Positions 22,626 through 63,969 are shown, counted from the stretch's first letter. The stretch: DNA of 64,000 bases from Bilabrum cf. latius (GCA_965178125.1 OZ237740.1:806001-870000), one strand, 5' to 3'. Notes: generated from the sequence alone by a model not told the origin. Made by a program: numbers and translations.

Positions 22626-22808
22626 TATTCCTGCATACATGAATGTGGCTGTGTCGTAAGTGTATATTACTACCTGTATCTGAGATGTAGACTGCCATCG
22701 CAACAAAACAACCATTGATCCACGGATCGCGCGGCGCCGCCGGCGCGGGTCCCCGGAACCTCAGCCTTGGGGTTCGGAACGCCACAGCAAAGGCACAAAG
22801 CTCTACCA

Positions 22809-25800
22809 ATGGATCGAAGTGCGCTTTTGTCTGGCAAGGAGGAGCGTATTTGGCGCTCTGCTGCCTTCGCTGGGCACTTTGCGGATGTCTTTACGGAAAG
22901 TAAGAAAGAAATGCCATGGTCTGCTCCCGTGCTGCTGGTGCCCACTAGGAGAGTCGATGCTGTCCATCACATCCTACCATTGCAGATACCGAGGTGCAAG
23001 GTGGGCATATTGCACCATCTCTTGATGCAATGGCGTACCTTTTGTCGCGAGTGGCGGACGATGAGACGCACCTCCAATCGCTGTCGACAGAACAGCGGCA
23101 GCTTCTGCGATCTTTCGCTACTCTATTCATCCCTGCCGCGCGAGACAGCCGAACGATAAAGCACGCTGGAGATAAAGGGAGACGCCTTATTCGTGCGGTT
23201 CAATCGGTGAAAGATCGCCTTGAATCCATGGAGGTTGGGGATTTTCAGGTTGTTGCTGGTGGTGAGCCACAATCTGCTTGCGTGCGCGATCAATTACTGT
23301 GTTTATGTGCTTGCCATAGGGCCCCTAGCTGAATCAATGTTGCTTGAGCGTGTGATCCGTTTTCCACGTTTGATTCTTTGAACTCGCATACTAGTATCGC
23401 AGGATGGGCGCAACCGGGTGGGGGGCACGCGATCATGTACATCGTGGAGAAGACGAGCGAGACGAAGTGCACGTTTACAGTGTGCAACACGGGCGATGGC
23501 ATCGAGGCACACCCTTCCGCCAACGACCAGTTCCCAGATCCGGCCAGAGTCCGCACATCCGTGTCGCTCGAGCAGGTCGAGATGTCGCGAGTGACGGACC
23601 CTGCCACCCTTTTCATGCTCTTCCAGCTCCAAGCAACAGCCAAGAACTCGCACCACAAGTACGCCTTCTACGGTGTCATCCTCCCGTACATCGCCGGCGG
23701 TCCCGTGGGCAAGGCCATCGAGAGCTCTTCAAAAAATGGCCCCTACCGCACTCCCCAAAGGTCTGGGACCTGCTACTACAGGTGCGTGCTGGCCACGCTC
23801 AAGTACCTCATGGTCCGGAATGGGTTCGACGAGAGGGCTCAAAAGGAAGTTACCTACTGCCTTCGGCTGAGGTACATGCTCGTGGCGCTGCGGCAGCTAT
23901 CCGTTGGCCTTGGCCTGGAGGCTGTCTTCGCTGCTGGAGCCAGCAAGGCGGCTCAAGCCTCCTCGGGCGCCGGAGCGAGCGAGTCTACCGATGGCGACAT
24001 CAACCTGAGTACGCTCGACTCTGATGCGCCTCGAATCACTCGCAAGGTGCTCCGTGAGTGCACTCCGGTGCTGGCCTCGGAGTACGAGCCCGAGCAAGAA
24101 GAAGACGAGCAGGCGGACGATGACGGCAGCGACGAGGACGAAGGCGAGAAGGCTGGCGGCGCTGCCGAGGGAGGCAGTAAAACATAGTCTGCATCGCACA
24201 AAATCGTGGATCACAGCAAGGCTGGGTCTGGTGTCCCCCGCCACGCGAAGGAATACGCGCTGGCACCGCATGAGGTGAAATTGTTGGAGATTGGCATGAG
24301 GCAGACCGCGGTGGCCGCTCGAAAACTCAGCATCCGTGGGTGGATCAACACGGCAGGGCAGAGGCGCGTAAACACCTTGTGTGAAGAGATACGCAGGCTC
24401 ATTGTCCGTGCGGATGAAACGGGAGCAGCGTCTGTGTCCCTCGAGGACGACGTGCTGCACCCCGCTCTGGATGGACGGCGCGCGATCGCCGCTGGATCGG
24501 GCGACGGGAGCGTCTCGTTGGAGGCCTGGCAGTCCATGTACGATTCAGATGCGCTCATGCCTCCTCCCTTGCGCCTGGACAGCCTTGCTGTCACTTCAAG
24601 GGACTTCGCAGGCTTCGACCTCGTCGGTGACACTCGGGACACGGACGGTTTTCAGGGCGGAGCCAGCGAGGCGCTGCCGGAACTATTCATTGACATGGAG
24701 GAGAAAGACCCTGCGGCTACCAGCAGATCTGCCGCGGTCGCCACGGCTGGCGCGTCGGAATCGAAAGAAAGCGGCGACGGTGGCGCTGCGTCTGGGGCCG
24801 GCACCGACGACTGCGGTGCTCTGAGAGGTTCCGCAACTGACATTCTGCGCGATGAGGACGGCAGGCCAGTCGGGGGAAGCTTCGATGACACTGAAGCTCT
24901 CGTGTACCGTGTGGTCGAGCGAGTGAAAAAGCTGAGGCAGAGGTCGGAGCTCGGCCAAGGCAGCCTCGTGTTCCTCCAGCTGACGGGTGCGGTTGAGGAC
25001 GCTTTCGCAAGGCGGCTGCCAGTCGTGAAGCCCTGGGCAAAGTGGCGTACCCACCCCGATGCACCCAGGGATGCATGGACGCCCGCCCCAGGCGCCTTGA
25101 CGCTGGCTCGGCAGCGAAAACTGCTCAAGGCGCTCGAGTTCGTGCTCGGCAACTACCTCGCAGCGATGCGCTCCGTGTAGTATCAGAGGGAGCTTCAGGG
25201 CGTTCGGCTAGTTACCTCGGCCGCCATCTACTTTGCATTCGACTGGATCCTTCGGCTCAAGGCGGGCGACGAAGTCTCGCCTGTTGCAGCGAGGCTCGCC
25301 GCTCCCATGACGCATGAGGAGGGCAAGATCGTCCCGAAGGACGGAGAGCAGGAAGCTGACGAGGGTGCAGCCCACGAGGGTGCAGCCAAGTCGTCCACCG
25401 GGAGCGATGAATCCGAAAAGGTAGGCACTGACGCGGCGACCTCGTCTCACGTCCCAGATGGCGTGCACGCGTGGATACCGTTCTGCTCCTTGAACGGGGA
25501 GAGTCTCATGGATATGCTCTAGTGCGCACTCGTCACGCAGCCAGAGGTGGCTGTGGCGAGGGCCGACGCTCTACGATATGACACGGTCATGCAGGTCCTT
25601 GCAGAGAGCACAGCGTTCGAGATTCACGCTAACAAGCCGAAGCAGAGCACCAACGTACGGCTTCAAGAGAGCTCGCCAGAGGTGGAGTTTGCCCAAATGG
25701 CGATGAAGGCCTACGGTGTGTCGGAAAAATTGCCACCGGGAACAAATCGCAACACAAGGACAGACGGCGATACGCCCACCGATGTAGAGCGCGCGGCGCG

Positions 25801-28800
25801 GTGGCTGTGCCACAACTGGGAGGAGGTCCCAGAGCTGTCGATGCTTTGGAGGGTGAGTCTCACTGCGAGAGCTTGCGCGGCCTATGACCCGGCCCAAAAC
25901 ACGAGAACGCTCGAGGTTCGCACCTACTACACGTCGGAACTGCTTCCTACGTTCCTGTACAAGTACACGCATCGCGGGTCACCTGCATCAGCCATTGTGC
26001 AGTTTGGTGTGATGGGCGGCTCATCGGTGGCTTCAAGGCATGGCAATTTCGCGTCGTATGCTTCGATGTCGAAAATTACAGAACCCGGAGCTATGATCAA
26101 TGCGTTCCTGAAGTCAGCTCTTGCGGGCAGTGGTGGGGCCTAGCAGAAGTAGTACTCGGAGCAGCAGCTAGTACTGCTGCAGCAGACCGTCCCAACTCCT
26201 GCCGGCGAAGCCGATGTGGCCCGAGCCCCCAGCCTGCCCGACTTTGACCATGCTCTCTCCGAAGAAGAGTCCATGCTGCTGCTGCAGTCGCTGGCAGGCA
26301 AGTACCTTCGGATGCCGATGGTGGTCCGCTTCTTCGCAGACGACAGGCTCGGTGCGCTCTTCAACCGGGAGCTGCAGTGCGTGCTAGAGAGAGTGCTGTT
26401 CGAGCCAGGCGTATTCTATGACCATAGACCAATCGTGGAGGCAGGCGGCGTCGTCGTGCCGTCTGCACCTGCACTCGCCGACAGCGAGCAGGCCAGGCTG
26501 GGCAGCCGCCACGGCGCTCTGATGAACGAGATGCAGCATGCTCCGAGCGGCGTTGTAGGTCCGCTGCTGACTGCAGCGCACAAGGTCGCGGAACTCGCGC
26601 TGGGGAAGTACACCTCGTCCTTTGTTGGGACGCTGCTGTTCGTGACCCGACTGCTTGCTCGAGTTGAATCCTTCCTCCAGTTCGTGCTTCGTCACAAGCT
26701 CTCCTCTAACGAACCGGCTAGGCGTGAAGGCGAGCGTATGCTGGACCGGATTCGCCTCTTTATGGAAGGCCCCGCCCGCCAGAAGTTGCTGCGGTATTTG
26801 TCTTAGACCGAGGGCGACGATTCATCGGAAGCTCATGTTGCAGCGTGCAGGCTGCATGCGCACCACGCACTGCTGTTTGCCTCCATTCCGGACACTGGGC
26901 TCTCCTTTCCCAGCGCTGCGGCATTCATGCGCTCCGTTGCGTACGTTACCGCATGGTACGTGCAGTAGGACGCCGATCAAGCGCAAAAGGAGCTAAAGAA
27001 GAAGGAAGAGGATCCACCCAGTACGGAAAGGAAATCATTTGCTGCGATGAGGAAAGAGGCGGAGGAGAAGCTCAAGGAGTAGCGCAAGATGATGGCTGCC
27101 CTGCTGAGCCAAGACGGACCAGTGGCTGCCATTCCTATCGTCGATGTACTGTCTGCAATGGTATCCAATAGATCTGCCGTCATGGATCTAATGCGCTCTG
27201 CATCGCAGGAGCAACGAGACGATATGCTATAGGGTATGCTCGGGACTGCTCTGTGTGAGCCCAAGATGGTTGCCCGCGGGTGGGACAACGCATCTTCGAC
27301 CGCTTTCAAGTGCGCGATGGAGCTTGAGTCTAGGCACCCGTACTCTGCGTCGACTTCATCGTACCACATCCTCGAGTTTCCGGGGGCAAGTAGCATCACG
27401 CTCACTTTCGACGATCGGTCCGAGACGGACCCCGATCAGTCTGCAGGTGACTTTGTGGCGGTCTACAAGGATAGCACATACACTGCAACGTGGGGTAAGC
27501 CCAAGTACCACGGCGAGGCAGGCGAGAATTGGCCTGGGGCTGGCGGAAAGCCACCGCTAGTCATTCCCAGTGACAGTTGCGTGCTTCACTTCCACTCGGA
27601 CACGGACGGGGAGCGATGGGGCTACCGCGTGAAGATAGAGGCGACGATCAACGCGGAAGGGGCTACCGAGCTCTCGAAGGAGACCAGGACTGACGGCAAA
27701 CCTGGGACATGGCCGCTGCGTTGGTGCCAACAGGCGTACGCCGAAGCACTGAACAGGCCCGAAGAAGCTAGAAAATGGCTGCAGGACCACGCTGAAGAGC
27801 TAGAGGCAAAGGCGGCCACCGAGGCACCGACCGAGGAAAAGGTCAACGGTCTCTTTCGGGACGGCTCCGGGTCTGCTGAAGTCAACGTGCAGACCGGGGA
27901 AGTATTCTTGCAGGGCAGAGTTACGGCTCCTACACCTACCGTGGTGGTAAACATGCAGCAGTTCCGGGAGGTATTCGGGGAGTCGATACCGCTATGCGGA
28001 GTGGAAGCGGCCAAGGTGGCCTGTTAGTCGTACAACATCGTATCTGGCGGTCATCGATACATCGTCAAGGCGTGGAAGCCTGTCGGGGTGCAACCATCTG
28101 GCGGAATTACGCATCTGCCTGACAAATTTGACTCGCCCATGCTGTCGGACACAGAGCCTGTGCCTGCTTCCGCCCTGCCCCCGACATCCCACTGGAATGC
28201 GCCATAGCTGGTTGGAGGAATGGCAGTGTTCCGAGGCCGGGCCTACCGCTGGAGCCTGTCTGCCGACGACATTCAGTCCAAGATGAGCATCCCAGTTGAT
28301 CCGGTGCCCGAGGGATACGAAGCTGCAGCAGGTCAGGATGAGCGTGGTAAGCTGGGCCACCACTGGGCCTGGGAGATTCTCAACGAGGCCGTGAAGGAGG
28401 CCCAGGAGCAGCTTAGGTAGCAGCGCGACGCCACGGAGAAGGAAGCCGACGGTCGAAAACCAGAAGGTGAATCCGCCGAGGACCAAGTGATCGACACGAC
28501 GTTCTTCTTGCCATACAGATTTGTTGATATGCTGCAGGAAAGCATGGACAAGCGCACCGAGGGAGGCAGTGGTTCTCATGCCCATGACCCCTCCAGCTTG
28601 TCGCAAACCACGGGGGTCAACGGGCTCATGTACATGCCTCCCACAGACGAGTCAAGAGATGCTGGGACTCGACCGGGCACCTGGTTTGAGGTTCAGTGGT
28701 GCTCCACGAGGTGCGTCCTGACGGTGTACCAGCTCCTCGAGAGGGCACGCAGGTGCGTGCGCAGCCTGGTCTGGTGCTCCGATTGCCGGTTCGGCCTGAA

Positions 28801-31800
28801 GAGTCTCGAAGAGTCCACTGGTGATAGATCGAGGCCGTGGCACCGCATGATGCGTCATGCTGCTGGCAATTTCCTTGGCTCACTGCAAGAGGAGCGCGCC
28901 AAGCAGGAGACCGCCGGCCCTCGCATGTTCGGCCAGGCCAAACGTCTGCGCAAGCTTGAGGCGCTGAAGGCCGAGCGCGAGTCGAAGCGACCTGCCTCCT
29001 TGGAGATCGTGAGGGAGCCCGTGGGCACGCTTGGAGGTCTGGGCGTGCACCCCTCGGTACCAGAGACGTATTTGAGCGCTGAAATGCTGCATGGCTTGAT
29101 GCCAGAGGCTCTTCTCGAGGGTTATGCCTTCTGGAGGCATTCCTTCGGCGATGCAGCTCCTACCGTGCTCATTGGCTACCCTTAGCAGCCTGAGCTGATT
29201 GGTACGTATATCCGTGCCGAGATCTCCCGAAAGGATGGGATAGCTCACATACTGCGACTGTCTGAGGCGGGTGCCCTGGCCTACGCGCAAGCCAGGCAGC
29301 CTGCTAAGGAAGACCAGGAAATGGTGCTGAATATAACTGCGGCTCCTCCTGGCTCGGCGCTGTGGCGGATTGCCCAGCTGCTCGCCAGGGCAGAGCAGCT
29401 GTCTCACGTTCTCGTTTGGACGAAGGCTATTGGGCATGCCGGCGAAGAGGTGCCCATCTCCTCCATTGAGCTGCCCCGGCTGCGGACTTCCTTCCAAGCC
29501 AAGTAGGTATTCGACTCCGCGTCAGACACCTTCGTTACTAGGCTTTACTCCAAGGATTTCAATGGTCTGTACATCACCGACGATCGGCCTGGGTCGCTGC
29601 GAAGGCACCTTCGCTCGCTTCCGCAGGCCATCGTGCTGTCAAGTGACATTGGAGAGATTTCGCTCCTTGCGCCGAGTCTGACTGCTTGCTGTCCTGGCGT
29701 AAAGAGTGCCCCCTTTTCGACTGAGGTCGTTCTGACGCGCGATGAAGCTTGGAAGGAATGCCTTTAGTCCCGATTCTTCGTGTATCCCCTGCATGCTAGT
29801 GGTACGTTCCTCATGACGCCGGACACTTCATCAGCTCTGTACTTGGCCGCGATGTGTCTTCTTCGGCGGGACTATGAAAGGTGCTGTGCCATCGCTCCTG
29901 CGTGCAGAACTGATCTGCCTCTGAACGTACAAGAGGCTTGGGCGCTGCAGCAGCTCTGGAAGTCTGAGGAGGACAAGCACCCTGATGCCCACGCGTGTCG
30001 CATTCGATTCGCTGCGATCGAAAAGGAAGCTGAAGGCGAAGAGGCCGCACTTGGGGCTGGACGGCAGTCTCAGGAAGCGATAGCAGCCGGAATCGGCAGC
30101 TGGATCGTAGATGACGAGGTACTGGGGAAAGATTTTGCTGGATATGGCAAGAAAGAACAGAGCATCAGCGCATTTGCACGGCTGTCCCCGCAGGAGCAGC
30201 TCGACGTGCACCGCCTCTTTGAAGTGAAAGGTGATCGGACCAAGTACTTGGCCGTGCTTTCCAAGGTCGTTGCTAGGCAGGAACGGATCGACGAGGAGGC
30301 TGAGTTGAAACGCGAGCACGAGCAGCAAGAAATATCACTGGGACCGGTGGGAGCGAGCGCCGATGAGATGGGTCCACCTTTGGTGCGGCGCCAGTCTTCC
30401 CTTCGGCTCGAGCGAAGCGAACAGCAGTCAATCGCGCTGCATGCCGTCCATGAGTCGGCACACCCTTTCACCTTTGGTGCCGAGGCGGCTGCGAAGTCTT
30501 CTAATGGAGAAGCAGCAGAAGGCGGTGCCGGTCACGGCAACCTTCGGGGCACCAGGGCTGCGGCGGGCGGCGCAGCTGATGCTGGAGCTGATGCTGGAGC
30601 TGATGCTGGAGCTGCCAAACAGCAAATTAGCTCAGTGCAGAAGGTCGGCTTCTCTTCAGCTGATTAGCTCACGCTCACTTTTGATAAGCAGTGCAACCTT
30701 CCGCGAGGCGTTAAGCTGTCTGTCTACCTCGATGCAGACTGCAAGAGAATTGCCTAGCACATGAGTGCTCGAGTGAATCTCCAAAGGGAGGCTAACAATC
30801 CCAAGGAGGCAAATCTGTGGCCAGGTGTACGATGTGCCCCCCTGGTGGTTGACCAGGGACAAGTGTACATCCAAGTGGAGGGGCCGAGAGAACTTGGCGA
30901 AGTGACAGCTTGGGGGTGGAGCGTGAAACTAGACGCGCAGGGCTATGCCGAGTCTACTTCTGGCAGGACCATGAGTAGTCATGAGCATGATGCTCAGCCC
31001 GTAGGGGGTAGGCAGCCGAGCCTTGGAGGGCGAGCTGATAAAGAACTCCTAGATGCATTGGCGATCGAGAGCGGGCACAAATCTGCTGGTGAAGTTGACC
31101 GAGAGGAGGCCATAGAGCACATGAAAGCACCTCCCCCAAAGCAAGGAACAGACATCGGCAGCTACTTCAATACGTTTGTCAAAGACACTACTCAGCTCCT
31201 GCGCACAGCACAGAAGAGCGGAAGCCTCCCGTTCCAACGCTTTTCGGTCCAATACAAGCGGCCAACGCACAGCAAGCTGCAAGAGTACGGCTGGGTAGAG
31301 CTGCTCAGCGAGTTCGAAGAGGATGACAAGTTCCTGTCTGGGCGATAGAAACAACTGGGTTTCTGCTTTTTGTACGAGCTTGGGAGAGGTAACCTCAAGT
31401 TCGATATCTTGAAGGAATCCGTGCCAAGGCCTAAGGAGAGAGATACATCCAGCTCCGGCGGTGCGGCTGCTGGCAGCAGCGGTGCAGACACGAGCAAGGA
31501 CGAGGAAATCGCACGGAGGCTGGCTCAAGGCCTTCCCATTGATGCCTTGATGGGTGGTGGAGAGGAGGAAGATGATTGGTCGGGTGGCGACACGCTGGAG
31601 GTGTTCGAGGAGGATTACGGGAGATTCGCGCAGCCAGCACTGCTTCACATGCTCACATACGTGTACTTGTGGCACGCAGCGGACTGGGACTCGAAGAAGG
31701 CAGTGGATTCGAGGTCTGGTTTGGGTCTGTCGTTTGCATGCCTGCAAATGCTGGCGTATGCCGGTTCCGTCGATCGTATGAGAGGGACGAACGGCAAACC

Positions 31801-34800
31801 AGGAAGCCTTGTGTCCATGTTCCCCCTTCTTCCGGTCGAAGGGCATGTACGGGACTTCCAGAGCGGCATAAACTTTGCGGGTGGCATCGGTCTCGAGTTC
31901 ACTTCCAAGCTCGCGGTCGCTTGCGAAGCAACTGCCGCTTCCCTTGGATTCGCTCTCACGCGTGTCTACCGTCCACTTCGCTCTGCTTTGAGGCAGAACT
32001 ACTCGGGGCCGATCGATGTCGTTGTCAGGGCAAGCGACGCACCCCCAAGCCGGCCCGCTGTACTGGAGTTCGGCTGCAACCACCGTTAGCTGCAGGCAAT
32101 CGAATCTCACGACATGGTAGCTCTGTTGCGAGACGCAAGTGACGATGAGCTGGAGGACACACTCGAGGCTGCACACAATGATGCTCAAGGTGGGCGGTTT
32201 GGTCTCGGCTTGAGTAGAGCTGAGTTGCTCACGTTCAGCTCTTCGCCATTGCAGGGGTTCGGCTTCGGCATCGGTGGATCCGATGATGTCGCAGGCGCTG
32301 GTCCAGACCTCGTGCAGCGTCCTACAAAGGGCAATACAGAACACCCTGACGGACCGTTCAGTCCGAACCTGCCCTTTGACATTGATCGCAAATTCGGAGA
32401 TGCTAGCACATTTGAAGGCAAGGAAATTTTGTTTCGCATTGAGGCAGACATCAAGGGCAGCGCACAGTATGCAGAGGCAAAGCAGGAGTGGCGCCTCGCC
32501 TGCCTTGATGATTCGTAGATGCACACGATCGAGGAGGCGCTACTTGAGCCTGCGTTGGCTGTTGACCTGGAGGCGGCTCGAGCTTCGATGACACGCTCAC
32601 AGACATCTAGCACCAGGGCTGCTAAGCTGGACGGTACTGGCTTTGACGGAGCGGCGGTGTGCAGTGCCATCAAGCAGGCAGCAGACTCCATCAAAGGAAT
32701 TTGCGTCCGACTGGCTCGCATTGCCAGGGAAGATAAGGCGCGCGTCTCGACTGGTATCTCAAAGCTCTTGTCAGGCGCTAATTAGTTGAGCACGGGGCTT
32801 GCACCTGTGGTACCTGACGCTGGTGATTCTCACTCAAAGCATTCTCTGCAACACTCTTTGCGACGCAGCTCTGGCTCGGCATTGTATCTGTGGTTCGAAT
32901 TTTTCGCTGCGTCCACGATGTCGAAGCACGCCACAAGGGGCATCAGGCACCTTAACCCATTCTTGTCTGAGGAGGACTGCGAGGTGGCGCTGCAGATTAC
33001 CTCTGCCCTAATGCTTCGTGTCAACAGAATAGTTCATGTAGCTCGCTCCCTGGAAGCGGCAAAGAAGCTTCTGCAACAGCTGGAAGGGCTTGTTGTTCGT
33101 CGGTTGACTGCCGCTCTAGAGGCACAAGCGGTGGAGGGGTCGCTAGCTCCTACCAAGCAGCTCGTGTCTGATGCGCTGAAGTACGCCGAATTTGATCCCG
33201 GCGTGGCTGCACGGCTCGTTCAAGCATCGTTGGAGGCTGCAGATCGCCTTGCTATCTGGGTGAAATCCATGGCGCAGCAGCAGCTAGAAGAGGCCGACTC
33301 AGATGCGTCATTCAAGCGGGCAGACGTTGAGGAGCGCTCACTTGTTCGACCCTGCGATGGGGATAGCGAAGCGTCTATCCTGGCTATGACTGCCTTGAAC
33401 CTTGCCGGGCTCTTTGAGCACGGTCAAATCTTTGATGCTGATCACGTGAAGAATATAGAAGAGTAGGCACGCGGCCTCGTCGATGGCTCTGTGCACGTTC
33501 CGGATGGGCTGACAAAGGCTGGTTTGCGGGGAGTCGCCGCCATACGAAAAGTGGTAGATCTTTCTGACCGTGGCTGTTGTGTTGGTGGACATAGGCTGCG
33601 TGGAGTGGCTGCTCCTGTCGGCTCAGCTTCATCTTCAGACATCCGCTCTAGGTTACAGTCCAGGCTCAGGTCATTGCCAGCTGAAATCTATCTTCTCAGG
33701 CACAAAGCGACTCAGGTGGCGCAGCTCATGGCCGTTAAGCGGCATTACATGGACGGATTTTCGTGGGACCCTGCGGCAGCGCAGGCTTCGACAGCCGATT
33801 CAATTGGCTTTGATCCTCGCTTCCTTGGGTTTGAGTTCCTGAGCACGTTCGTGCTGCGTAAGAGGCAGGTCCAGCTCGTCCGGAACTTCTTGAAGTCGGG
33901 AGCCAGTTCTGGAGGCAGCCGCATCGAGTAGCAGATTATGGGAGGAGGAAAATCAAGCGTGATTGCGCCGTTGCTCGCTCTTTGCCTGTCGGATGGTGAA
34001 AGCCTCACCATGTCGGTGATGCCAGCTCCTCTGCTGCAATAGTCCCGAGAGACTTTACGACAGATCTTCTCGGCGCTGGTTGTCAAGCGAATCATTACAT
34101 TGCGATTCGACCGTGCTGCCGCTTAGTTCCTGCAGCCCAGCAGCAAGGACGCCCAGGGCTCTGACCTTGGCATTGCTCCACAAGCGCCCGCGAGGCTGGA
34201 TGCCCTCGTCAGGAGGCTAGATAGGGCAAGGAGGGAGGGAGCAATCGTGTGCTCAACTCCTGAAGCAATCAAGTCCCTCATGCTCAAGTACGTTGAGCTG
34301 CTCTCAGATGTGGAGCAAGCCCCACCCGAGGCGCTCGTCGATTCGAAACGAATCCGAGACATGCGACAGCGCAAGGCTGCCGTTCAGGCTGCCAAGGAGC
34401 TAAGGATTAAGGAGGAGTGCGCCGACGCACTTCGTGATTTGATGCGTATGTGGGGACCTGAGGGACGCGGCGTGATTTTGCTGGACGAAGTCGACCTTCT
34501 GATTCACAGCCTCAAATCAGAGACGAACTTTCCCATCGGATCCAAAGAGCCCGTAGACCTTGGAGTCCCAGAAGATAGCCCAGACGATGATCTAGAGCTT
34601 GCTCTCATGGAGAGTGCTGACCTTTCGAACGCCGCAAGCAAGGATTCCGGGGCTGGTGAGATGTGGGGGGACGCGTCTGCAATACCAAGCGCGCAGCTAC
34701 CACCGGCAGAGGCTCAGCAAGCTGCCGAGGACGCATTTGGCTCCCCGGTAGATTTGGAAGCGGCTGAGTCTGCATTTGGTGCTCCTGTTGATGTCGGTGG

Positions 34801-37800
34801 TGACATGGCTGCAGCTGAAGACGCATTCGGGTCCCCGGTAGATGCAGGCGAAGGGGTCAGCAGCAGCGCGGCGGCTGATGCATTCGGTACCCCCGTTGTC
34901 GATTCTGCGGGAAGCTCAGCAGGCGCTACTTCTGAGAGTGCGACCGCTGCAGACGCAGGCAAGCAGACAGAGGCACAGCCAAGCTCCAGCACTGCTGTGC
35001 AGCAGCCAGTGGATCAGCCGCAGCAGGATTCCACGTTCGCTCGCAGGCCCTCGAGATGGGACCTTCCTTTCCACCTCCTGGAGGCGATACTAGCCCACTC
35101 GCGAGGAAGGGTTGGTCTACCAGGCTTTCACTCGACCAAAGAGAGCAGCACTATTCTGAAGGAAATCGGTGAGGTCATCTCTGAAGGTGTCCGTAGCCTA
35201 GCCCTCTAGACGAGTCCGCACCTTGTGCTGTTGCGTTCGGAGTTCTACCATGGCAGCATGCGGTCTCTGCTGGCCAAGTGGCTGCGGGTCTGGTTGAGGC
35301 AGGACCCCTTCCTCCGCAGGGTCCTTGCTCCACTCGTGGACCCGGCCACAGGGCAGGTGGTCCAGCAGGACGACTTGTAGAAGATGGATCGCGTCAAGCA
35401 GTCGGCGCTCCGATTCACGCCAGACATAGAACAAGCTCTCCTGGCTTTTATTGAAGGCGCCTCTATGGGTGAGCGACCTGAGGGGGCTGCGAAGGGCGCT
35501 GCAGCCGCAGAGGACGCGATCGAGAACGCGCACCCGTCTGTTGTGGTCCTGCGGGATCGGTGCCGAGGCGTACCATCTGCCTTCAAGGTGCTACACTTGG
35601 CAAGGCAGTGGATTATCACGTACCTTCCTCATGTCCTCGGCAAGATTGACCGCGTAAGTTTCGGCCTGCTGCAACCAGAGGATCTCGCGAAGACAGCAGG
35701 AGGTGGTGCCTCGATGCCAATTGCCCGCAAGTATCTTGCAGTCCCCTTTGTGGGGAAAGACCAGCCGTCCAGGGCATCTGAGTTTGCCCAGGTGGACACT
35801 CAGATTGGTCTTGCCGTGCTGGCTTACAGGTACGAGGGTGTAAGACGGAGCGACCTCGACCGTATCCTGCGAAGGCTCAAGGCGGACTTCAAGTCCGAGA
35901 ACGGTCCTGCAGAGAGCCGCCCTTCCAGAATCCTCTTCCAGAGCTGGATCGAGGCATCCACTGTGGAGTACGAACGCGCCTAGAAGCGAGACGAGGCTCT
36001 CGCTGAAGGCGGTGAATCCAAGCCTGCCTCCCACCACGACATCGCCCCTGGCAGGGAGGTCCTACCTCTGGAACTGATCCAGCCCAGGGAGAAACCACAC
36101 ATGGACAAGTGTTTCGAGGCGCTGCGTGACTCTCCCGAGATGATCGTGCACTACCTCCGCAAGTTTGTGTTCCCCGAGGTGATGCGGCACCGGAGGGTGA
36201 AACTATCCGCCTCTGGCATCGACATTGCTGGGCAGCAGATGCTGTTCGACCGGCGACTTGGTTTCAGTGGTACGCCGTCATCGACCTCGCTTCTGCCGAC
36301 GGGCATGCGCTGCGAATTTGAAAAAGGCTCCGAAGCCCTGGTTATTCGAACGCTGACCAACCCCAAGATGGTGTCGACTCGGTTGCTTGCCAAGCAATGG
36401 ACGGTGGATAGCGTGCTACAGCACATCGCCAAGAGCCAGTCTCCGCGGTACAGCGCGCTCATTGATGCCGGTGCGTTGGTCACGGGGCTTAGCAACTTCT
36501 AGGTGGCTGAGAAACTGCTCGAGTACGGCCTTGATGGCGCGAAGGGGGTAGTGTACCTGGATGACAACGACGACAAGATGATCCTGCTTCGCGGGTCTGG
36601 GCGTGTGGTGCCACTGGCCAACAGCGGCGTCCCCCCTGAGGCAAGGTTTGCATTTTACGATCAGATCCATTGCACTGGAGTCGACTTGAAGTTGCCGTTG
36701 GACGCGATTGCTTCCGTTACCGTTGGCAAGTCCATGACGCTTCGAGACTATTCTCAAGCCTGCTGGCGCTGCAGAGGCTTGGAAACTGGTCAGACTCTGG
36801 TGGTGATGATGATCCCAGAGGTCGTGGAGCTCGTTCGACGGTCGGCCAAGATGGAAGCAATCTCCATGGGTGGCGATGGATCCGAGAGCTTGCTTGACGA
36901 CGCGGGAGTGGGAGATGGGTCTCTAGTTGGCCCTGCCAGACTCGCAGGTGACCTAGTATCGTGGCTTGCTCTCAACGGTATCCGTTCCGAGCAGCTGTAG
37001 CACCTGCAAGTTTGCCAGCAAAATCTTGCGTTTGTGTGGAGGAAGGAAGCCATTGACCGTTTGCGCGGCACGAGCGCCCCAGATCTCAAGAAATCTGGCG
37101 GTCAAGCACCTTCACTAGTTACGCGATTCTGCAAGGATTCAAGCGTAGCTGCGGGTTCTCTTCCTGTTGACTTTTTGCGGAGTGTTTCCCAGGCGGCTCG
37201 CTCCACCTCCGGCAGTGGTACGCCAAATCCGGCCGCTGGTCGGTAGGCTGGCGGCATCAACGTTGCTAAGTTGGACTTTGAGCAAGTGCAAGCGCTTGCT
37301 GAGACTGGTCAGATCTCACACGAACAGATGATTGATGCGATTTAGCAGATCAGCAAGAGGCAGTACGAAGAACGGCAGGCTACTGAGAAGGCTGCGGCCG
37401 AAGCAGCTGCGTCGCCCTCGCCCACCGATGGCAGAGCAGGCGCAAGCGAGTCAAAAGCGCAAGATGGAGATATTGAAGCTGTGGCTGCTCCAGCAGACGC
37501 CGTGCCTGCCTCATCCAGCGATGATTCTCAGATCAAGTCGATGCGAGACTCCATCGAGGTGTTCCGTGAGCCACTGGTCTTTGATCTGCCTGATCGCATG
37601 GAGCCTCCGATGCAGTACCACGAGGTGCTGCAGCGAATGTTGGACGGCAAGCGCCACCTACTGCAGGGGCCACGGCGAGTTGAGTTGGAGACAATCGGAA
37701 GTGACATCGTAGAGGAGTGTAAGACAGCAGAGCAGGATGCCATGCGAGCGAGGTTGCCACCGCCGAAAGAAGCCGCGGCAGATGGAAGTGGCGAGGGTGG

Positions 37801-40800
37801 TGGCAGTGGCCTGAGTGCAGCTGAAGAGCTTGCATTCGACGCCGAGGTGGTCCAGGAGCAGGAGCAGGAGCAGGAAATCTTGCAGGAGCAGTACACGGTG
37901 CCAGTTCGGTCGGCGGGTCCAGCCGGCGGGCAGTCTTACCAATGGTCTATCGAAGCATTACGGTCTCCCGACAGCCTCAAGAGGCACGCGTTGTATCCTC
38001 TCCGAGAGTACAAACCCACCAAGTAGGCGCCGCAGATTCTATTCCCAGCGGATGTACTCATGTCTGACAACCTTGCCAACCGTGTCCCCCCCACAGGTCC
38101 GGACCCATACAGACTGGCGAATGCTCTCGTCCTGGCTGAATGGACGCCTGCTGCCAGCTAGATGTACGGCGGTGCCCCGGCGGTGCCACGTGCCGTCTTG
38201 CTGACGCTGGCCGAAGCATCGGCTTTGCGCAAGGCACTACACACGCAGCACCCTGCCCTCTTCAGCGCAGCGCAGGAAGGCAACGTTGCAGCCTCGCAGA
38301 ACCGGGCCAGGGTGGTTCTACGGCTGCTCGACGGGGCATACCTGGACCCGGGCGTTCGAACGGCTAGTGGAGTTGCCGGCACTTCAGAGGCGAGTGCAGT
38401 GGATGCGAGGGGCAACAGTCTCGCTGTTGCACGTCTGCCCCAGGCACAAGTTGGTGCCATCATTCCGTCCCTTGCTCTGGCACGCCAGGCAGCTCGCTTC
38501 TTCAACTGTGAATTCATGTACAACGACCGCGAGCTCGTGGCACTGGTCCGCGCCCTTCGGGATTCCCCGCTTCAAGACCGCCGCCGCTTTATCCGTGCCA
38601 TGCTTGATGGTGCGAGGAGGAGAGACCGGGACTCGTGGGAGGACACGCCTCTGGCTGAGGCGATGGCCCATGCCGACGAAGTCAAGTTGCTCAACCTGCA
38701 GGCCACCGCAAGGAAAATAGCGTCTGAGGTTGCGACCAAGGTGGGGTCGGTGGAGAAAGCGTTTCATGACATGGACAGCGACGGTGATGGCTATGTCACC
38801 GAAGATGAGATGCTCGCAGGCTTGCGACGACTCGGAGTGCAAGTCGTGGCTGATGATGTGCGAGCCATACTGCGAGCTTCGGACACGAACGGTGACGGGT
38901 ATCTTGACTTGCGAGAGTTCGCAAAGCGGTTTGCTCCTCGCGATCCTTCCAAGCACCAGATCGGGGACGATGTCGACCTGGAGCGAGGCGGAAACGAGGA
39001 CCAGATCGGTGCCAAGATTAAATCGACGCTAATGCAGCAGCTGGATGAGCAAGAAGAGCAGCGACGCGTCGCAACGGAGCGATACATGAAGGAGCACTCT
39101 GGCGATGGAGACAAGCACGGGCTAGGTGCGGTCATCTCAAGGGCGATCCAAGGAGACGAGTTACAGCAGCAGGCTGCAGTGACAGCCGGTGCCGCCTCAA
39201 GTGCTGCCGGGCTTGGTCTGCTGAGCGATCATTTCTCTGCATCTGATGTTGTGCGGCTCGGTCAGTTCGTTGTCACTTCCGGAGGCGCAGCGCTGCTAGA
39301 GGGTGGCAATTTTTCGCGAGTTACGTCCGGGCGGCTTGTATCTCTCCGTCCATTCGGAGCCTCGCTGCCACTAGGCGCCGAGGCGTCGCGAAGCAGCGGT
39401 TTTGGCCAGCTCCCGTTGACTTTTTACTTCGAAGCCACCCTTTTGATCTGCTCTGATGATGATGATGGCAGTTGTGTCGGCGTTTGTAGCTCCAAATTCC
39501 GCGGCTCCAACAAGAAAGGGGTTGGTGTCGGCTCGGACGAGCTGTCGTGGGGCATCGGGCTGGATGGCAGCATTCGACATGCCGGCAGAGCGCGGGCGTC
39601 CACTCACGAAGGTAGGTTGGCGGTCGGAGATGTTATTGGCGTCCGAGTGGATGCCTGTGGTTTCGACACGGAAGGCGTGGCAATCGCTATCTACGTCAAC
39701 GGTGATCTTGTGAAGATTAAGGACGATTCGTCGACCGCGGCTGATCTCACTCTTGGCGGCATCATGAAGGGTTCAGAGTAGGAGTCTCTATCTCCTGCGT
39801 TTACCATGCAGGCTGGCTGCTAGATGTTCCTGAACAATGGGTACGAGCCGTTCCGTCGCTTCCCCCCTTCTGGAGCGCTGTCCTTCAAGCGATTCATACA
39901 GCGATCCCAGGAAATGAAGGTGCTCAGGGATGCTGGGCGCGCTGCATGCAAGATGCTGCCAACGAGCGGAAATGGTCAGATTGCAATCAATGGTCTTGAC
40001 GTGAAGTGGATTGCCGCGTTCCCGTCCGCCGTTCTTGCAGGGTGCCTCCTCACCAGCGGGAAGTGGTACTTTGAGATGCAGTGCAAGAAAGTGGGCAATG
40101 CCTCGCAGCTTGGTTGGGCCGACATGGCTTTCTGCGGATCAAGTAGGGGAGGCGAAGGGGTGGGTGATGATAAGAATTCGTGGGCGTACGATGGGGATCG
40201 CGCGAACATGGGGCAGGGCAGGTGGCACAAGCTCAAGCCAACCCCCTTTGGAAGGAATTGGGCCGCTGGTGATTACGTCGGCTTTGCACTTGACATGGAC
40301 CGGCGCATCATGTCGTTCGGACTCAACGGCAGGTACGATGTGCCTATGGGTGTTGGCTTCAAAGATTTCTTGGTCGACACAGGCTTGACCCCCGCTGTGA
40401 CACCGGCGCATTCATCTTGGACCATGAATTTCGGGGAAACCTCGTTCGGCAGCAGACCTCCAGAGGGGTACAGGTCAGTGCAGTCCTGGTTTGCTGAGCG
40501 TGACCCCAGCCGGTTCAGTGCTATCGACTACCCGCCAACTGCTAGTGCACATGCTGGAGGCGGGGCTGTCGGTCACATCGCCGCAGGTGCCGGCTCCCAA
40601 GCTGCAGGTGGGGCGGCAGCTGGTGGAGCTGCTGACCCTCTATCGGCTACGCCCCTTGTGCGCGGCGTGTCAACCCTGGACACGCCCGTAGACCCGAGCG
40701 ATGCAGTGGCTCCAGTCAGGGCCCTCGTGAATGGGTTCGAGGTGGCCTCACTGGAATCTAGCACGAACACGTTTAAGGCGCTAAGGCACAGCCCAACCGT

Positions 40801-41332
40801 GTTTGCCGACGGTGTCCGTCTGACGGAAGGCCACTGGTACTACGAGGTCAAGATCCGCAACGCGGGGATGGGCTGCATTGGCTGGTCTGATTTGCGCTTC
40901 TTTGGGAAGTGGGCAAGCGACGAGGGAGTTGGTGACGACTCCGAGGGATTCTCCTGGGGGTTTGACGGTTACGCCGGAGTGATTCGGCATGGTGGGAGAT
41001 CGTGGCCGTTTCCTTTGCGGTGGAGGTCTGGGGACCACGTTGGCTGCTCTGTGAATCTGTAGACTGGAGAGGTGCGCTTCGCAATCAACGGTGCTTGGGA
41101 CGCCGCTCCGGTCGCGTTCGGTGGGCGTGACGCAGTCGGAGTCGGAGCCGCGTCGGTCGTCCATTGCATTGCTGGGGGTGGTATTGCGCTTCGGCCGGCA
41201 GTGACCTCGGATTTCAGTCAGCAGAAGGTGTTCGAGGTGCAGCTGTTGTTCAACGAGGCGGGTGACGGGCGAGAGCCTCCTGAGGAGGGCGACGATGCGT
41301 ACCTCCCAGTAGTGCTCTCCGCCGCTGTCTAA
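22809..41332 (+). CDS. Giant multidomain protein (~6098 aa): putative Cys-protease N-terminus, DUF3638/DUF3645 SF2-like P-loop module, EF-hand pair, three SPRY domains
   Basis: Introns 22900-22985 and 23262-23402, then a ~17.9-kb exon in one frame broken only by TAG; ends TAA 41330-41332. Motifs: QIMGGGKSSVIAPLL (Walker A), LLDEVD (Walker B), AVPFVGKDQPSRASEF (DUF3645-like), GFSGTP, YDQIHCTGVDLKLP, QACWRCRGL, VQEQEQEQE. EF-hands DSDGDGYVTEDE and DTNGDGYLDLRE. SPRY motifs GKWYFE, GVGDD, SWAYDG. Confidence 0.9.
34721..34903 (+). repeat. Four copies of an AAEDAFGSPVD-like peptide repeat inside the giant CDS
   Basis: AAEDAFGSPVD, AAESAFGAPVD, AAEDAFGSPVD and AAADAFGTPVV, all in frame. Confidence 0.8.
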
Positions 41333-41417
41333 TTGTCAATGATTTGTAGTCTGAAGCTTTCCTACGTTTGCAATGAAAGTATGACACAAACAGCATTCTC
41401 TAAAATCAAGGGCCGTC

Positions 41418-62327: not shown

Positions 62328-63969
62328 TCACATGCCAGCGCCAGAGGCCGCGCCTCCGCCCGCCTTGCTAGTAAGAGGTCGCACTTCGACCGTCTTACCG
62401 CTCGTGATCTTGCCCCAGCCGATGAGCCTCCAATGCTTGTCAACTTGCCTGCTCAGGGCGATCTTGTCCCCGGGCTCTGCGCACACTGGCAGCGTTAATG
62501 TCAGGGTGGCGATGTCACCCCTGACCTTGCCAACCCTGCCCGTGGTGCTCTTGGACCCGACATTGACCATGAGGCTCTCCTTCCTCTCCAGCTTGCGGAT
62601 CTTCTGGTCCGTGCCCTCACCGGCGCGCACTCCCAGCAATCGTCGCAGCAGGTGGTACTGCACCTGAATTTCCTCGTAAACCATGGGCAGGTTGCCCCTG
62701 TGCCCCAGGACGTGGCCCACAAGCCTATCTGCCCGGGTGAGGGTGGGGTCAATGCTGGTTCCCACTCCGATGAGGCCGCCCGGCACGGCGTACTGCAGCT
62801 TGTTGGTCTCCGCCTTGAGATCCGTGACGGTGCTAAAAATCGGGGAGCACACGTTCTGCTTGGTGGCGGGGTCCCTTCGCACCAGCCCGGGGAGGATCTC
62901 GATCTCGTCGCCCAGCTTGAGGACCCCCCTGAGGATGGACCCTCCCGCCACGCCTCCCTCCATGTCTTCGATCTTGTGCCCCGGTCTGTTCACGTCGAAG
63001 GATCGAATGACGATCATCCTGGGGCTGTTGGTGAAGTCTCTCACGGGGAGAGGAACCTTCCTCGCGAGGTACTCGCAGACCAGGTCCACGTTGTACCCTA
63101 GCTGGGCCGAGACGGGCAGGATGGGGGCGTTCTCGGCCACACCTCCGTCCAAAAAGGCCTTGATCTGCTGGTACTGCTCCTTGGCCTGGTCTCGGCTGAC
63201 GATATCGACCTTGTTCTGCAGCACGATGATCTTGTCCAGCTGCATGATCTCCACCGCTGCCAGGTGCTCTTGGGTCTGGGGCTATGGGCAAGGCTCGTTG
63301 GCAGCGATGAGCAGGATGGCGGCGTCCATCACGGCTGCTCCGTTCAGCATGGTTGCCATGAGAATGTCGTGGCCCGGGCAATCGACAAAGGAAATGTGCC
63401 GCACCAGCTGCATGGTTCTGCCCGTGCCGTCTTCCATGGGATACTCATCAGGGGAATTACTTCGACCAGAGGCGTAGACGTACGGCGGTGCGCTCGACCT
63501 GTAAATCTTCGCATTAGCGTAGCCAAGCTTGATAGTAATGTTCTGAGCCAACTCATCCTTGAACTTCACGGTCTTCACACCCGACAGAGCCTTCACAGTG
63601 GTGCTCTTGCCGTGCGCTACGTGACCTACGGTTCCGATGTTGATGGTTGCCTATCTCGAGATGATCTCGGGGGTCAGTGGTGTGAGAGATTCGACCTTGA
63701 GCCCCTCCAATGACTGCTCTTTCATGCCCTGCAGGAGATCAAATGGGAGGCAACAAGGGTGCGAGAAACAAGACTTGAACCGGTGCAGTTCTGCCAGAAC
63801 GAGGGACAGGGACAGTACTGGGAGCCTAGGCCAAAGCATAGCAACCCATGCCATTGCTTACCTCTCCAGTAGGCATCGGGGGCCCCTTTGCAGACCAAGG
63901 GTGAAGTTTCTCCGCGTCAAAGTCGGGTGCACGAACACCTCCTGCCCCACTGGCGGCCCCACTGCCCAT
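62328..63969 (-). CDS. EIF2S3: Eukaryotic translation initiation factor 2 gamma subunit
   Basis: ISR(TAG)[21 protein letters not shown]...[13 protein letters not shown]...[20 protein letters not shown]...ANEPCP(TAG)[13 protein letters not shown]...QNKVD...HWRLIGWG. Exons 63862-63969 and 62328-63728; stop TGA. Confidence 0.98.

What the first reader, a model, noticed from the sequence alone, without database searches (positions are those of the whole stretch)
23403..41332. A ~17.9-kb exon with about 37 in-frame TAG and no TAA or TGA
About 25 consecutive ORF-track fragments lie in one frame and all but the last end in TAG. I counted 37 in-frame TAGs by eye and saw no TAA or TGA until the terminal TAA. 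Random pseudogene decay would give mixed stops and frameshifts. Several TAGs sit in Gln-like contexts: E-TAG-QIMGGGKS (33929), LLQ-TAG-SR (34040), SEQL-TAG-HL (36998) and TAG-CAG-AAG-TAG (26141-26152). This is the best evidence in the window that UAA is not co-reassigned.
Basis: seen in the sequence. Interest (0 to 1): 0.8.

Follow-up and report, generated by a model that had tools for sequence, protein, structure and literature searches.

The report
Giant gene read with TAG as glutamine
This 17.9-kb stretch is the real last exon of a 6,098-residue protein gene in a eukaryote that reads the stop codon TAG as glutamine while keeping TAA and TGA as stops, a rare genetic-code variant.

Summary
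The frame of 23405 has 37 TAG, no TGA, and one TAA at 41330-41332. The other two frames of the same span hold 106-183 TGA and 13-26 TAA.

The stretch is exon 3 of a three-exon gene: 22809-22899, 22986-23261 and 23403-41332. It encodes a 6,098-aa DUF3638/DUF3645/EF-hand/3xSPRY protein that aligns along its length with 24 giant homologs.

TAG means glutamine:
- Homolog residues at the 37 TAG columns favour Gln by 94 log-likelihood units over Glu.
- Three conserved columns are Gln in 100/103, 114/130 and 104/114 homologs.
- Two TAGs in the window's eIF2-gamma gene sit at invariant Gln (117/117 and 120/120).
- Two near relatives carry an ordinary Gln where the window has TAG.

TAA is not co-reassigned. 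There are 0 in-frame TAA against about 37 expected in nine frames, and the two convergent TAA stops flank an 85-nt spacer of 39% GC.

Contigs of two public runs skip both introns, and those of one lie collinear on the exon.

The code type is published for Iotanema and some ciliates. The lineage here could not be placed. No tRNA or eRF1 could be examined.

The parts
22809..22899 (+). Exon 1 (coding part). ATG at 22809, ends with the first base of a split codon.
   Evidence: 22809 is the only ATG in 22758-22811, the start of the spliced contig. The spliced N-terminus aligns to homolog P0122 residues 16-332, E 4e-50. An X1 contig covers 22758-22899 and then skips.
22900..22985 (+). Intron 1, 86 nt, GT..AG (GTAAGA...TTGCAG).
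   Evidence: Skipped by one contig each in runs X1 and X2. Retained in the genomic contigs of X3 and X4. Boundaries read.
22986..23261 (+). Exon 2, 276 nt.
   Evidence: In frame with exons 1 and 3 and free of stops. Homolog alignment is continuous across both junctions. X1 contig piece covers 22986-23260.
23262..23402 (+). Intron 2, 141 nt, GT..AG (GTGAGC...TCGCAG). Carries TGA at 23330 and 23345 in the exon-3 frame.
   Evidence: Skipped by an X1 contig. Stops listed.
23403..41332 (+). Exon 3, the finding: 17,930 nt with 37 in-frame TAG, 0 TGA and a terminal TAA at 41330-41332.
   Evidence: X1 contigs cover 23402-41269 collinear with the window, with 0 other letters and 0 gaps.
23756..23782 (+). 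Conserved Q-R-S/A-G-x-C-Y-Y/F-R/K motif in the N-terminal domain. Candidate cysteine-peptidase active-site loop (inference only).
   Evidence: Conserved in the 3 homolog alignments printed. Pfam finds no family for the N-terminal 3,000 residues.
33815..34369 (+). DUF3638 domain with Walker-A-like GGGKS. Contains the TAGs at 33929, 34040 and 34124. The Walker-B-like DEVD lies downstream of the matched stretch.
   Evidence: Pfam PF12340, E 5e-17, 62.4 bits against cutoff 31. Motifs read.
33929..33931 (+). TAG at a nearly invariant Gln column just before the P-loop.
   Evidence: Gln in 23 of 24 giant homologs and 100 of 103 HMMER hits.
35207..35209 (+). TAG at a conserved Gln column. A fragment from a 94%-identical relative (P0205) ends exactly here.
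   Evidence: Gln 20/22 and 114/130. P0205 aligns to fragment residues 276-520, and the TAG is residue 521.
35726..35812 (+). DUF3645 domain.
   Evidence: Pfam PF12359, E 3.8e-10, 39.4 bits against cutoff 25.
36998..37000 (+). TAG at a conserved Gln column.
   Evidence: Gln 19/23 and 104/114.
38753..38932 (+). EF-hand pair.
   Evidence: Pfam PF13499, E 3.5e-11.
39422..39703 (+). SPRY domain 1.
   Evidence: Pfam PF00622, E 7.3e-6, 26.5 bits against cutoff 26.3.
40061..40438 (+). SPRY domain 2.
   Evidence: Pfam PF00622, E 1.6e-15.
40835..41098 (+). SPRY domain 3. The last TAG (41060) lies inside it, so translation must pass that TAG.
   Evidence: Pfam PF00622, E 4.1e-11. Homolog alignments run to exon-3-frame residues 5932-5979 of 5994.
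41333..41417 (.). 85-nt spacer between the TAA stops of two convergent genes.
   Evidence: GC 0.388 against 0.637 and 0.623 in the flanking 300 nt of coding sequence. The neighbour's stop, read on the minus strand at 41418-41420, is TAA.
62328..63725 (-). Independent control gene: single-exon eIF2-gamma with TAG at 63651-63653 and 63282-63284, ending in TGA.
   Evidence: Pfam. PDB alignments show Gln at both columns. Gln in 117/117 and 120/120 homologs. Relatives P0003 and P0005 carry Gln at the second site.

Best explanation
The stretch is the 17,930-nt third and last exon of an intact, apparently expressed nuclear gene. The exons are 22809-22899, 22986-23261 and 23403-41332, giving a CDS of 18,297 nt and 6,098 aa. 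The organism is an intron-poor eukaryote of about 60% GC whose nuclear code reads UAG as glutamine and keeps UAA and UGA as the only terminators. The 37 TAGs are ordinary Gln codons, about 13% of the gene's Gln codons. The protein belongs to the giant DUF3638/DUF3645 family, which UniRef names 'ubiquitinyl hydrolase 1'. It has an N-terminal domain with a conserved Q..G.C motif, a P-loop NTPase-like core, an EF-hand pair and three SPRY domains. Shown here: the codon counts, the Gln identity of TAG, the absence of sense TAA, the gene model and the family membership. Inferred from the published logic for Iotanema (PMC5304391, section 9 read) and not testable here: decoding by a tRNA-Gln with anticodon CUA, which pairs with UAG but not UAA and probably derives from tRNA-Gln(CUG) by one anticodon change; and an eRF1 that has lost UAG recognition.
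For: Codon counts. The frame has 37 TAG, 0 TGA and 1 terminal TAA, while the off-frames carry 106-183 TGA and 13-26 TAA. The full CDS runs ATG...TAA over 6,099 codons with TAG 37, CAG 181, CAA 64.

Gln identity within this gene. Across 24 giant homologs there are 325 cells at the 37 TAG columns: Gln 85, Glu 35, Arg 21. Log-likelihood puts Gln first, Glu at -93.9 and Lys at -114.6. With one vote per column Gln still leads by 5.3. In a calibration, the method recovered the true residue in 94-100 of 100 resamples for all 20 amino acids. With 148 HMMER hits, the conserved columns are Gln in 100/103, 114/130 and 104/114.

Independent gene. The eIF2-gamma TAGs lie at columns that are Gln in 117/117 and 120/120 homologs and in the top-scoring solved eIF2-gamma chains, whose alignments were printed.

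Close relatives. P0003 (419/422 identical) and P0005 (314/342 identical) have a standard-code Gln where the window has TAG.

Window-wide. Nine long frames total 17,744 codons with TAG 109, TAA 0 and TGA 0 internally. Seven end in TGA and two in TAA.

TAA as stop. About 13 TAA would be expected in this gene and about 37 in the window if TAA shared Gln at the CAA:CAG ratio (P 1.4e-5 and 1.2e-14). The spacer after the TAA drops to 39% GC and is followed 85 nt later by the convergent gene's own TAA. The best homolog, P0122, ends 40 residues after its last aligned residue, against 62 residues here.

Gene model. The spliced N-terminus aligns to P0122 residues 16-332 at E 4e-50, and 20 of 24 homologs hit it at E<=1e-3.

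Run contigs. X1 skips both introns (GT..AG), X2 skips intron 1, and the genomic contigs of X3 and X4 keep them. X1 contigs cover 23402-41269 with 0 differences and 0 gaps, so every TAG stands in them.
Against: No tRNA gene lies in the window and no genome is held. The decoding tRNA and eRF1 are therefore unseen and the mechanism is inferred.

The library kind of runs X1 and X2 is not on record. The tool guesses 'RNA?' and, for X1, 'RNA? (probably DNA)'. The statement that the TAGs persist in mRNA holds only if these contigs come from RNA.

One moderately conserved TAG column (34040) is mostly Met/Phe in homologs, with Gln in 4/24 and 37/115. At 36500 Glu (68) outnumbers Gln (45) of 143. Only 12 of 37 columns show any Gln among the 24 homologs; the rest are in variable regions.

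The nine frames were delimited by TAA and TGA, so the window-wide zero is partly by construction. The zero within this gene is not, because its ends are set by homology.

Whether UAG also terminates some genes elsewhere in the genome cannot be seen from one window.
Confidence: 0.92

Rival explanations
1. Ambiguous, context-dependent code. UAG is Gln inside genes but also ends translation near some mRNA 3' ends, as reported for UAR/UGA in Condylostoma and for UAA in Blastocrithidia.
For: Not excluded by design, because my frames were read with TAG as sense, so a TAG terminator followed by a short open tail would go unnoticed. Only nine gene ends were examined.
Against: None of the 9 frames needs TAG as terminator; 7 end in TGA and 2 in TAA. 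The last TAG of this gene, 41060, lies inside SPRY domain 3, and homologs align beyond it. eIF2-gamma has no TAG in its last 317 codons.
Confidence: 0.05
2. Both UAA and UAG are glutamine (the common UAR=Gln code of many ciliates, hexamitins, some ulvophytes and Amoeboaphelidium), and TAA is merely rare in a GC-rich genome.
For: GC3 is 0.58-0.84 in the nine frames, so A-ending codons are disfavoured.
Against: CAA is still 25.5% of CAR codons (193 of 757). About 37 in-frame TAA would be expected beside 109 TAG, and 0 are seen, P about 1e-14. Within this homology-bounded gene, 0 are seen against about 13 expected, P about 1e-5. Two convergent genes both stop at TAA, with a 39%-GC spacer between them.
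Confidence: 0.01
3. UAG encodes another residue (Glu, Lys, Leu, Tyr, Ser or pyrrolysine) rather than Gln.
For: UAG=Leu, Ser and Glu are all published for other eukaryotes (PMC5304391 abstract and passages; PMC11687900 discussion passages). Here Glu outnumbers Gln at one column (36500: 68 against 45 of 143).
Against: Glu is 93.9 and Lys 114.6 log-likelihood units worse than Gln. The eIF2-gamma columns are invariant Gln. Near relatives have a standard Gln codon at one TAG site.
Confidence: 0.01
4. The TAGs never reach the ribosome. They are removed by small in-frame introns or changed by RNA editing, or the locus is a decaying pseudogene.
For: The organism does splice: two GT..AG introns lie just upstream. 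The RNA nature of runs X1 and X2 is only a guess by the tool.
Against: TAGs sit inside conserved blocks at columns where homologs have a residue, so deleting them would break the alignment. The real introns carry TGA in this frame (23330 and 23345), whereas 17.9 kb of exon has none. The contigs of X1 that skip the upstream introns come from the same run whose contigs are identical to the genome across the exon. A pseudogene would show mixed stops and frameshifts, and none are present.
Confidence: 0.01

Closest known systems
Nuclear code of Iotanema spirale (Fornicata): UAG=Gln, with UAA and UGA as stops (Panek et al. 2017, PMC5304391; abstract, passages and section 9 read)
   Same: The codon meanings are the same: UAG is Gln, UAA and UGA terminate, and UAG is a minority Gln codon (about 8% there, about 13% here). 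The same predicted mechanism applies, tRNA-Gln(CUA) plus weakened UAG recognition by eRF1.
   Different: In Iotanema UAA is described as the primary stop; here TGA ends 7 of 9 frames. Iotanema was known from a transcriptome only. This is a genome contig of about 60% GC with long single-exon genes. The eIF2-gamma tree gives no named sister, and no fornicate sequence was in it, so kinship is neither shown nor excluded.
UAG-only to Gln in ciliates: Protocruzia tuzeti and two phyllopharyngean lineages (PMC11687900; discussion passages read)
   Same: The same decoupling of UAG from UAA, with Gln as the new meaning.
   Different: It is my recall, not tested here, that ciliate macronuclear genomes are AT-rich and, in phyllopharyngeans, gene-sized. 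Here the genomic contig exceeds 200 kb (X3 and X4 longest records) and GC is 0.51-0.66.
UAR=Gln codes (many ciliates, hexamitin diplomonads, some ulvophytes, Amoeboaphelidium; passages of PMC5304391 read; the mapping to NCBI table 6 is recalled)
   Same: A stop codon reassigned to Gln, with UGA kept as a stop.
   Different: TAA is not sense here: 0 seen against about 37 expected.
Giant DUF3638/DUF3645 proteins of protists, for example Aureococcus anophagefferens, Chlorarachnion reptans, Amorphochlora amoebiformis, Paulinella micropora and Entosiphon sulcatum (names)
   Same: The domain order is the same (N-terminal Q..G.C domain, DUF3638, DUF3645, EF-hand, SPRY), and alignment is collinear at 33-47% identity over the core.
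   Different: None of the listed homolog sequences contains recoded stops in its prediction. This copy carries an Ala/Asp/Gly-rich repeat insertion between DUF3638 and DUF3645, at about 34.7-34.9 kb. No member has a solved structure detectable by sequence (only one chance-level hit, E 0.55).

Membership tests
UAG=Gln / UAA+UGA=stop nuclear code (Iotanema type) | In-frame UAG in bona fide, conserved protein-coding genes | tested here: met
   37 in this gene, 109 in nine frames, and 2 in eIF2-gamma.
UAG=Gln / UAA+UGA=stop nuclear code (Iotanema type) | UAG positions correspond to Gln in homologs | tested here: met
   Gln leads by 93.9 log-likelihood units. Conserved columns are Gln in 100/103, 114/130 and 104/114. 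eIF2-gamma columns are 117/117 and 120/120. Exception: at 34040 the majority is Met/Phe.
UAG=Gln / UAA+UGA=stop nuclear code (Iotanema type) | UAA absent from coding frames and used as terminator | tested here: met
   0 internal TAA against about 13 expected in the gene and about 37 in the window. 2 of 9 frames end in TAA, with a 39%-GC spacer after the stop.
UAG=Gln / UAA+UGA=stop nuclear code (Iotanema type) | UGA absent from coding frames and used as terminator | tested here: met
   0 internal TGA in 17,744 codons, and 7 of 9 frames end in TGA.
UAG=Gln / UAA+UGA=stop nuclear code (Iotanema type) | A tRNA-Gln with anticodon CUA and no UAA-reading tRNA | not testable with these tools
   No tRNA in the window, no Rfam match, and no genome held.
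UAG=Gln / UAA+UGA=stop nuclear code (Iotanema type) | eRF1 N-domain change that weakens UAG recognition | not tested
UAG=Gln / UAA+UGA=stop nuclear code (Iotanema type) | UAG present in the mature mRNA (not spliced out or edited) | tested here: inconclusive
   X1 contigs are identical to the genome over 23402-41269, and an X1 contig skips both upstream introns. However, the run's library kind is not on record.
UAR=Gln code (UAA and UAG both Gln) | In-frame TAA at Gln positions | tested here: not met
   0 of 17,744 codons, P about 1e-14 under the CAA:CAG ratio.
Ambiguous stop/sense codes (Condylostoma or Blastocrithidia type) | The same codon also terminates genes | tested here: inconclusive
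   None of the 9 frames requires a TAG terminator, but nine gene ends are too few, and frames were read with TAG as sense.
DUF3638/DUF3645 giant protein family ('ubiquitinyl hydrolase 1' in UniRef) | PF12340 and PF12359 above gathering score, in that order | tested here: met
   62.4 bits against cutoff 31, and 39.4 bits against cutoff 25.
DUF3638/DUF3645 giant protein family ('ubiquitinyl hydrolase 1' in UniRef) | Full-length collinear similarity to family members | tested here: met
   24 homologs of 3,513-7,343 aa, E 5e-190 to 3e-79 on the core. 5,866 of 5,994 positions are covered. The N-terminus aligns from homolog residues 6-16.
DUF3638/DUF3645 giant protein family ('ubiquitinyl hydrolase 1' in UniRef) | Deubiquitinase or peptidase activity | not testable with these tools
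   The name comes only from UniRef labels on three hits. The Q..G.C motif is conserved. No Pfam family covers the N-terminal half.
Decayed pseudogene | Mixed stop types and frameshifts | tested here: not met
   Only TAG occurs in frame, and a single frame holds over 17.9 kb.

The most novel reading that the evidence does not exclude
The window comes from a eukaryotic lineage not yet described as using a variant code, which evolved UAG=Gln with UAA and UGA kept as stops independently of Iotanema and the ciliates. It has no named sister in an eIF2-gamma tree, and its nearest sequence outside its own small clade is at most 68% identical. Because contiguous genomic contigs and what look like transcript contigs both exist publicly, it would be the first non-ciliate case where the UAG-reading tRNA, the eRF1 changes and the glutaminyl-tRNA synthetase adaptation can be read straight from a genome.
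Probability: 0.4. Interest if true: 0.75.

Novelty: new member of a known kind. Interest (0 to 1): 0.6.

Why it matters
UAA and UAG almost always change meaning together. Only a handful of nuclear lineages are reported to have split them (PMC5304391 and PMC11687900, passages read). For the first non-ciliate UAG=Gln case, the authors wrote in 2017 that identifying the tRNA awaited a genome (PMC5304391, section 9).

This gene is a very clean natural demonstration: 6,098 codons, 37 UAG, none of the other stops, and homology from end to end. The window shows that the code applies to every gene in it, including an essential translation factor.

In practice, any annotation of this genome with the standard code will shatter its genes. 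The database already holds such fragments (P0003, P0005, P0205, P0238). Gene calling here needs TAG=Gln.

If the lineage is new for this code, it offers a tractable genome for asking how UAG is freed from eRF1 while UAA is kept.

Tried and rejected
- translating from 23403 gave the wrong frame with mixed stops. Corrected.
- no whole genome is held for this window, so no search for tRNA-Gln(CUA) or eRF1 was possible.
- Searches (ARAGORN; Rfam, gathering thresholds) found nothing in the window.
- no RNA holder listed. Six runs from two studies hold the stretch, and none is on record as RNA.
- X1 has no listed contig over 22681-22757 or 41270-41379. X2 has no depth in the bin 30742-31375. These uncovered parts are not used as evidence.
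- the single metagenome scan, queried with the relative's eIF2-gamma fragment P0005, returned 80 loci at 60-67% identity. The relative's own contig was not among them, so a codon-by-codon comparison of TAG against CAG/CAA between the two lineages could not be made. The loci were not used further.
- the 2,002-aa secreted protein (7595-13603), chosen to find lineage-specific relatives, had no hit at E<=1e-5 among proteins of 1,101-3,504 aa. It gave no help with taxonomy.
I dropped the step, so the fold and function of the N-terminal domain stay unexamined.
- naming homologs and building an eIF2-gamma tree of 40 rows put the window with its two near relatives on a long stem. The stem joins an unnamed long-branch sequence, P0011, and the tool flags that join as possibly false. 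No placement resulted. The rows were 3 from this clade, 23 named and 14 top unnamed hits; the other 81 of the 120 hits were left out.
- the DUF3638-DUF3645 core has no relative among solved structures by sequence (one hit at E 0.55).
- literature searches found no report of this code in a GC-rich non-ciliate genome within the held library. Subscription papers and supplements were not searched.
Full report
**Observation.** In the frame of 23405, the span 23403-41332 contains 37 TAG, no TGA and one TAA, the last codon at 41330-41332. The two other frames of the same span hold 183 and 106 TGA, 32 and 45 TAG, and 26 and 13 TAA. So TAG is present in frame at its background rate, while TGA and TAA are purged. 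From the off-frame densities, the chance of no TGA is about e^-144.5 and of no internal TAA about e^-19.5. My first translation, started at 23403, was in the wrong frame.

**Gene model.** Homolog alignments begin at residue 19 of the open frame but at residues 63-190 of the homologs, so about 120 residues had to lie upstream. The DNA shows GTAAGA at 22900, TTGCAG ending at 22985, GTGAGC at 23262 and TCGCAG ending at 23402.

- Joining 22809-22899, 22986-23261 and 23403 onward gives an open frame from an ATG.
- Its product aligns without interruption across both junctions to P0122 residues 16-332 (E 4e-50) and to P0144 residues 6-283 (E 1e-37). Of the 24 homologs, 20 hit it at E<=1e-3.
- 22809 is the only ATG between 22758 and the coding start.
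- The full CDS is 18,297 nt, or 6,098 residues plus TAA.

**Public runs.** Six runs from two studies hold the stretch, and four were laid.

- X3 and X4 each cover the whole stretch in one near-identical genomic contig that keeps both introns. They may be the window's source.
- One X1 contig skips 22900-22985 and 23262-23402 with GT..AG ends. An X2 contig skips the first of these.
- Further X1 contigs cover 23501-26379, 26359-27274 and 27256-41269 with no differing letter and no gap.
- The library kind of X1 and X2 is not on record. The tool guesses RNA and, for X1, 'probably DNA'.
- I read the intron-skipping contigs as transcript-derived. If so, the exon is unspliced and unedited, and the TAGs stand in the mRNA. 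This step is conditional on that reading.

**What TAG encodes, within this gene.** A search with the DUF3638-DUF3645 core found 24 proteins of 3,513-7,343 aa with the same domain set. Local BLAST of the exon-3 product, with X at TAG, covered 5,866 of its 5,994 positions with at least one homolog.

- The 37 TAG columns yield 325 homolog residues: Gln 85, Glu 35, Arg 21, Asp 18, and others fewer.
- I built a substitution table from the same alignments. With it, Gln is the best assignment, Glu is 93.9 log units worse and Lys 114.6 worse. With one vote per column, Gln still leads by 5.3.
- Resampling 37 positions of each real amino acid recovered that amino acid in 94-100 of 100 trials. The table was fitted on the same data, which is a mild circularity.
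- Twelve columns have 10 or more homolog residues. Four of those have a consensus of at least 50%: Gln at 33929 (23/24), 35207 (20/22) and 36998 (19/23), and Phe at 34040 (12/24, with Met 8 and Gln 4).
- An exhaustive HMMER search of a 1,200-residue core found 6,440 proteins at E<=0.001. I used the best 150, minus two near-identical fragments. They gave Gln in 100/103, 114/130 and 104/114 at the three conserved columns. At 34040 they gave Met 40, Gln 37 and Phe 33 of 115. At 36500 they gave Glu 68 and Gln 45 of 143.

**Independent evidence in the window.** All long frames carry in-frame TAG.

- The eIF2-gamma gene at 62328-63725 on the minus strand is a single exon with two TAGs. Both align to Gln in the top-scoring solved eIF2-gamma chains whose alignments were printed.
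- Among the 120 fetched homologs, every one that covers these columns has Gln: 117/117 and 120/120.
- Two database fragments from near relatives have Gln where the window has TAG at 63282-63284: P0003 (419/422 identical) and P0005 (314/342 identical). Neither covers the first TAG site. Because they were predicted as ordinary ORFs, they presumably carry CAG or CAA there.
- A fragment from a 94%-identical relative of the giant protein, P0205, stops exactly at the window's TAG at 35207. Another, P0238, stops where the window has Gln.

**TAA and TGA remain stops.** Nine frames total 17,744 codons and contain 109 TAG, 0 TAA and 0 TGA internally. Seven end in TGA and two in TAA.

- CAA makes up 25.5% of CAR codons. 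A co-reassigned TAA would therefore be expected about 37 times in the window (P about 1e-14) and about 13 times in this gene (P about 1e-5).
- The window-wide zero is partly by construction, since TAA delimited the frames. The zero in this gene is not, because homology bounds it at both ends.
- After the terminal TAA, GC falls from 0.637 to 0.388 for 85 nt. Then the convergent gene's own TAA follows at 41418-41420, right after its C-terminal SH3 domain.

**The protein.** Pfam gives the following domains:

- DUF3638 at 33815-34369
- DUF3645 at 35726-35812
- an EF-hand pair at 38753-38932
- SPRY domains at 39422-39703, 40061-40438 and 40835-41098

The N-terminal 3,000 residues have no Pfam family. 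A Q-R-S/A-G-x-C-Y-Y/F-R/K motif there is conserved in the printed alignments. UniRef labels three homologs 'ubiquitinyl hydrolase 1'. A cysteine-peptidase role for that motif is only an inference. No solved structure is related by sequence.

**Lineage.** Outside its own small clade, the best eIF2-gamma identity is 68%.

- The best named relatives of the giant protein are the chlorarachniophytes Chlorarachnion and Amorphochlora, at 44-46% over the core.
- A 40-row eIF2-gamma tree places the window clade on a long stem beside an unnamed long branch. The tool flags that join as unreliable.
- The lineage is therefore unplaced.

**Comparison with what is known.** UAG=Gln with UAA and UGA as stops was first described in Iotanema spirale (PMC5304391; abstract, passages and section 9 read). 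It was later reported in Protocruzia tuzeti and two phyllopharyngean lineages (PMC11687900; discussion passages read). The present case matches that code. It differs from Iotanema in using mostly TGA as terminator (7 of 9 frames). It differs from ciliates in genome style, though that contrast is recalled, not tested. Five searches of the held library found no report of this code in such a genome. Supplements and subscription papers were not visible.

**Verdict.** The phenomenon is a known kind of code variant, seen here in what may be a new lineage. The decoding tRNA and eRF1 remain to be found.

Noticed in passing
window 7595-13603 (+): A 2,002-aa predicted secreted protein with an N-terminal signal-like peptide and a C-terminal hydrophobic segment. 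It has no Pfam family and no homolog at E<=1e-5 among proteins of 1,101-3,504 aa. It has the highest GC3 of the nine frames (0.836) and a CAG:CAA ratio of 97:4, yet still carries 6 TAG.
   Followed up: partly
window 41418-51257 (-): A 3,279-aa single-frame gene with 26 in-frame TAG, a PAS fold and a C-terminal SH3 domain. It converges on the giant gene and also ends in TAA. An X1 contig of 9,965 nt starts at 41380, and only its first 121 nt were laid.
   Followed up: partly
window 24771 and 34877: In both X1 and X2, one contig fits the window only from 24771 onward and another only up to 34877, with unlike sequence beyond. Both places lie in Ala/Gly/Ser/Asp-rich low-complexity coding sequence. 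The second lies in a repeated D-A-F-G-x-P-V-D-like insertion. This could be allelic repeat variation or a paralog. It remains unexplained.
   Followed up: partly
window 38271 and 39603: Run X2 contigs differ from the window at two places, both at low depth. They would be Ala to Val and Thr to Ser changes. They are probably strain or allele differences or errors.
   Followed up: partly
window 51258-55512: A 4.2-kb stretch without any long frame, even with TAG read as sense. GC is 0.534, with the window's lowest value (0.508) at 52-54 kb. It was not analysed.
   Followed up: no
window 3-1064 (+) and 55513-62160 (+): A hybrid histidine-kinase/response-regulator C-terminus runs off the window start (2 TAG). 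A 2,215-aa ankyrin + RCC1-repeat protein has 11 TAG. Both end in TGA.
   Followed up: no
database fragments P0003, P0005, P0205, P0238: Public protein collections hold truncated ORF fragments of this organism or its close relatives (92-99% identical). At least one, P0205, ends exactly where the window has TAG. This suggests that standard-code gene calling is fragmenting these genomes.
   Followed up: partly
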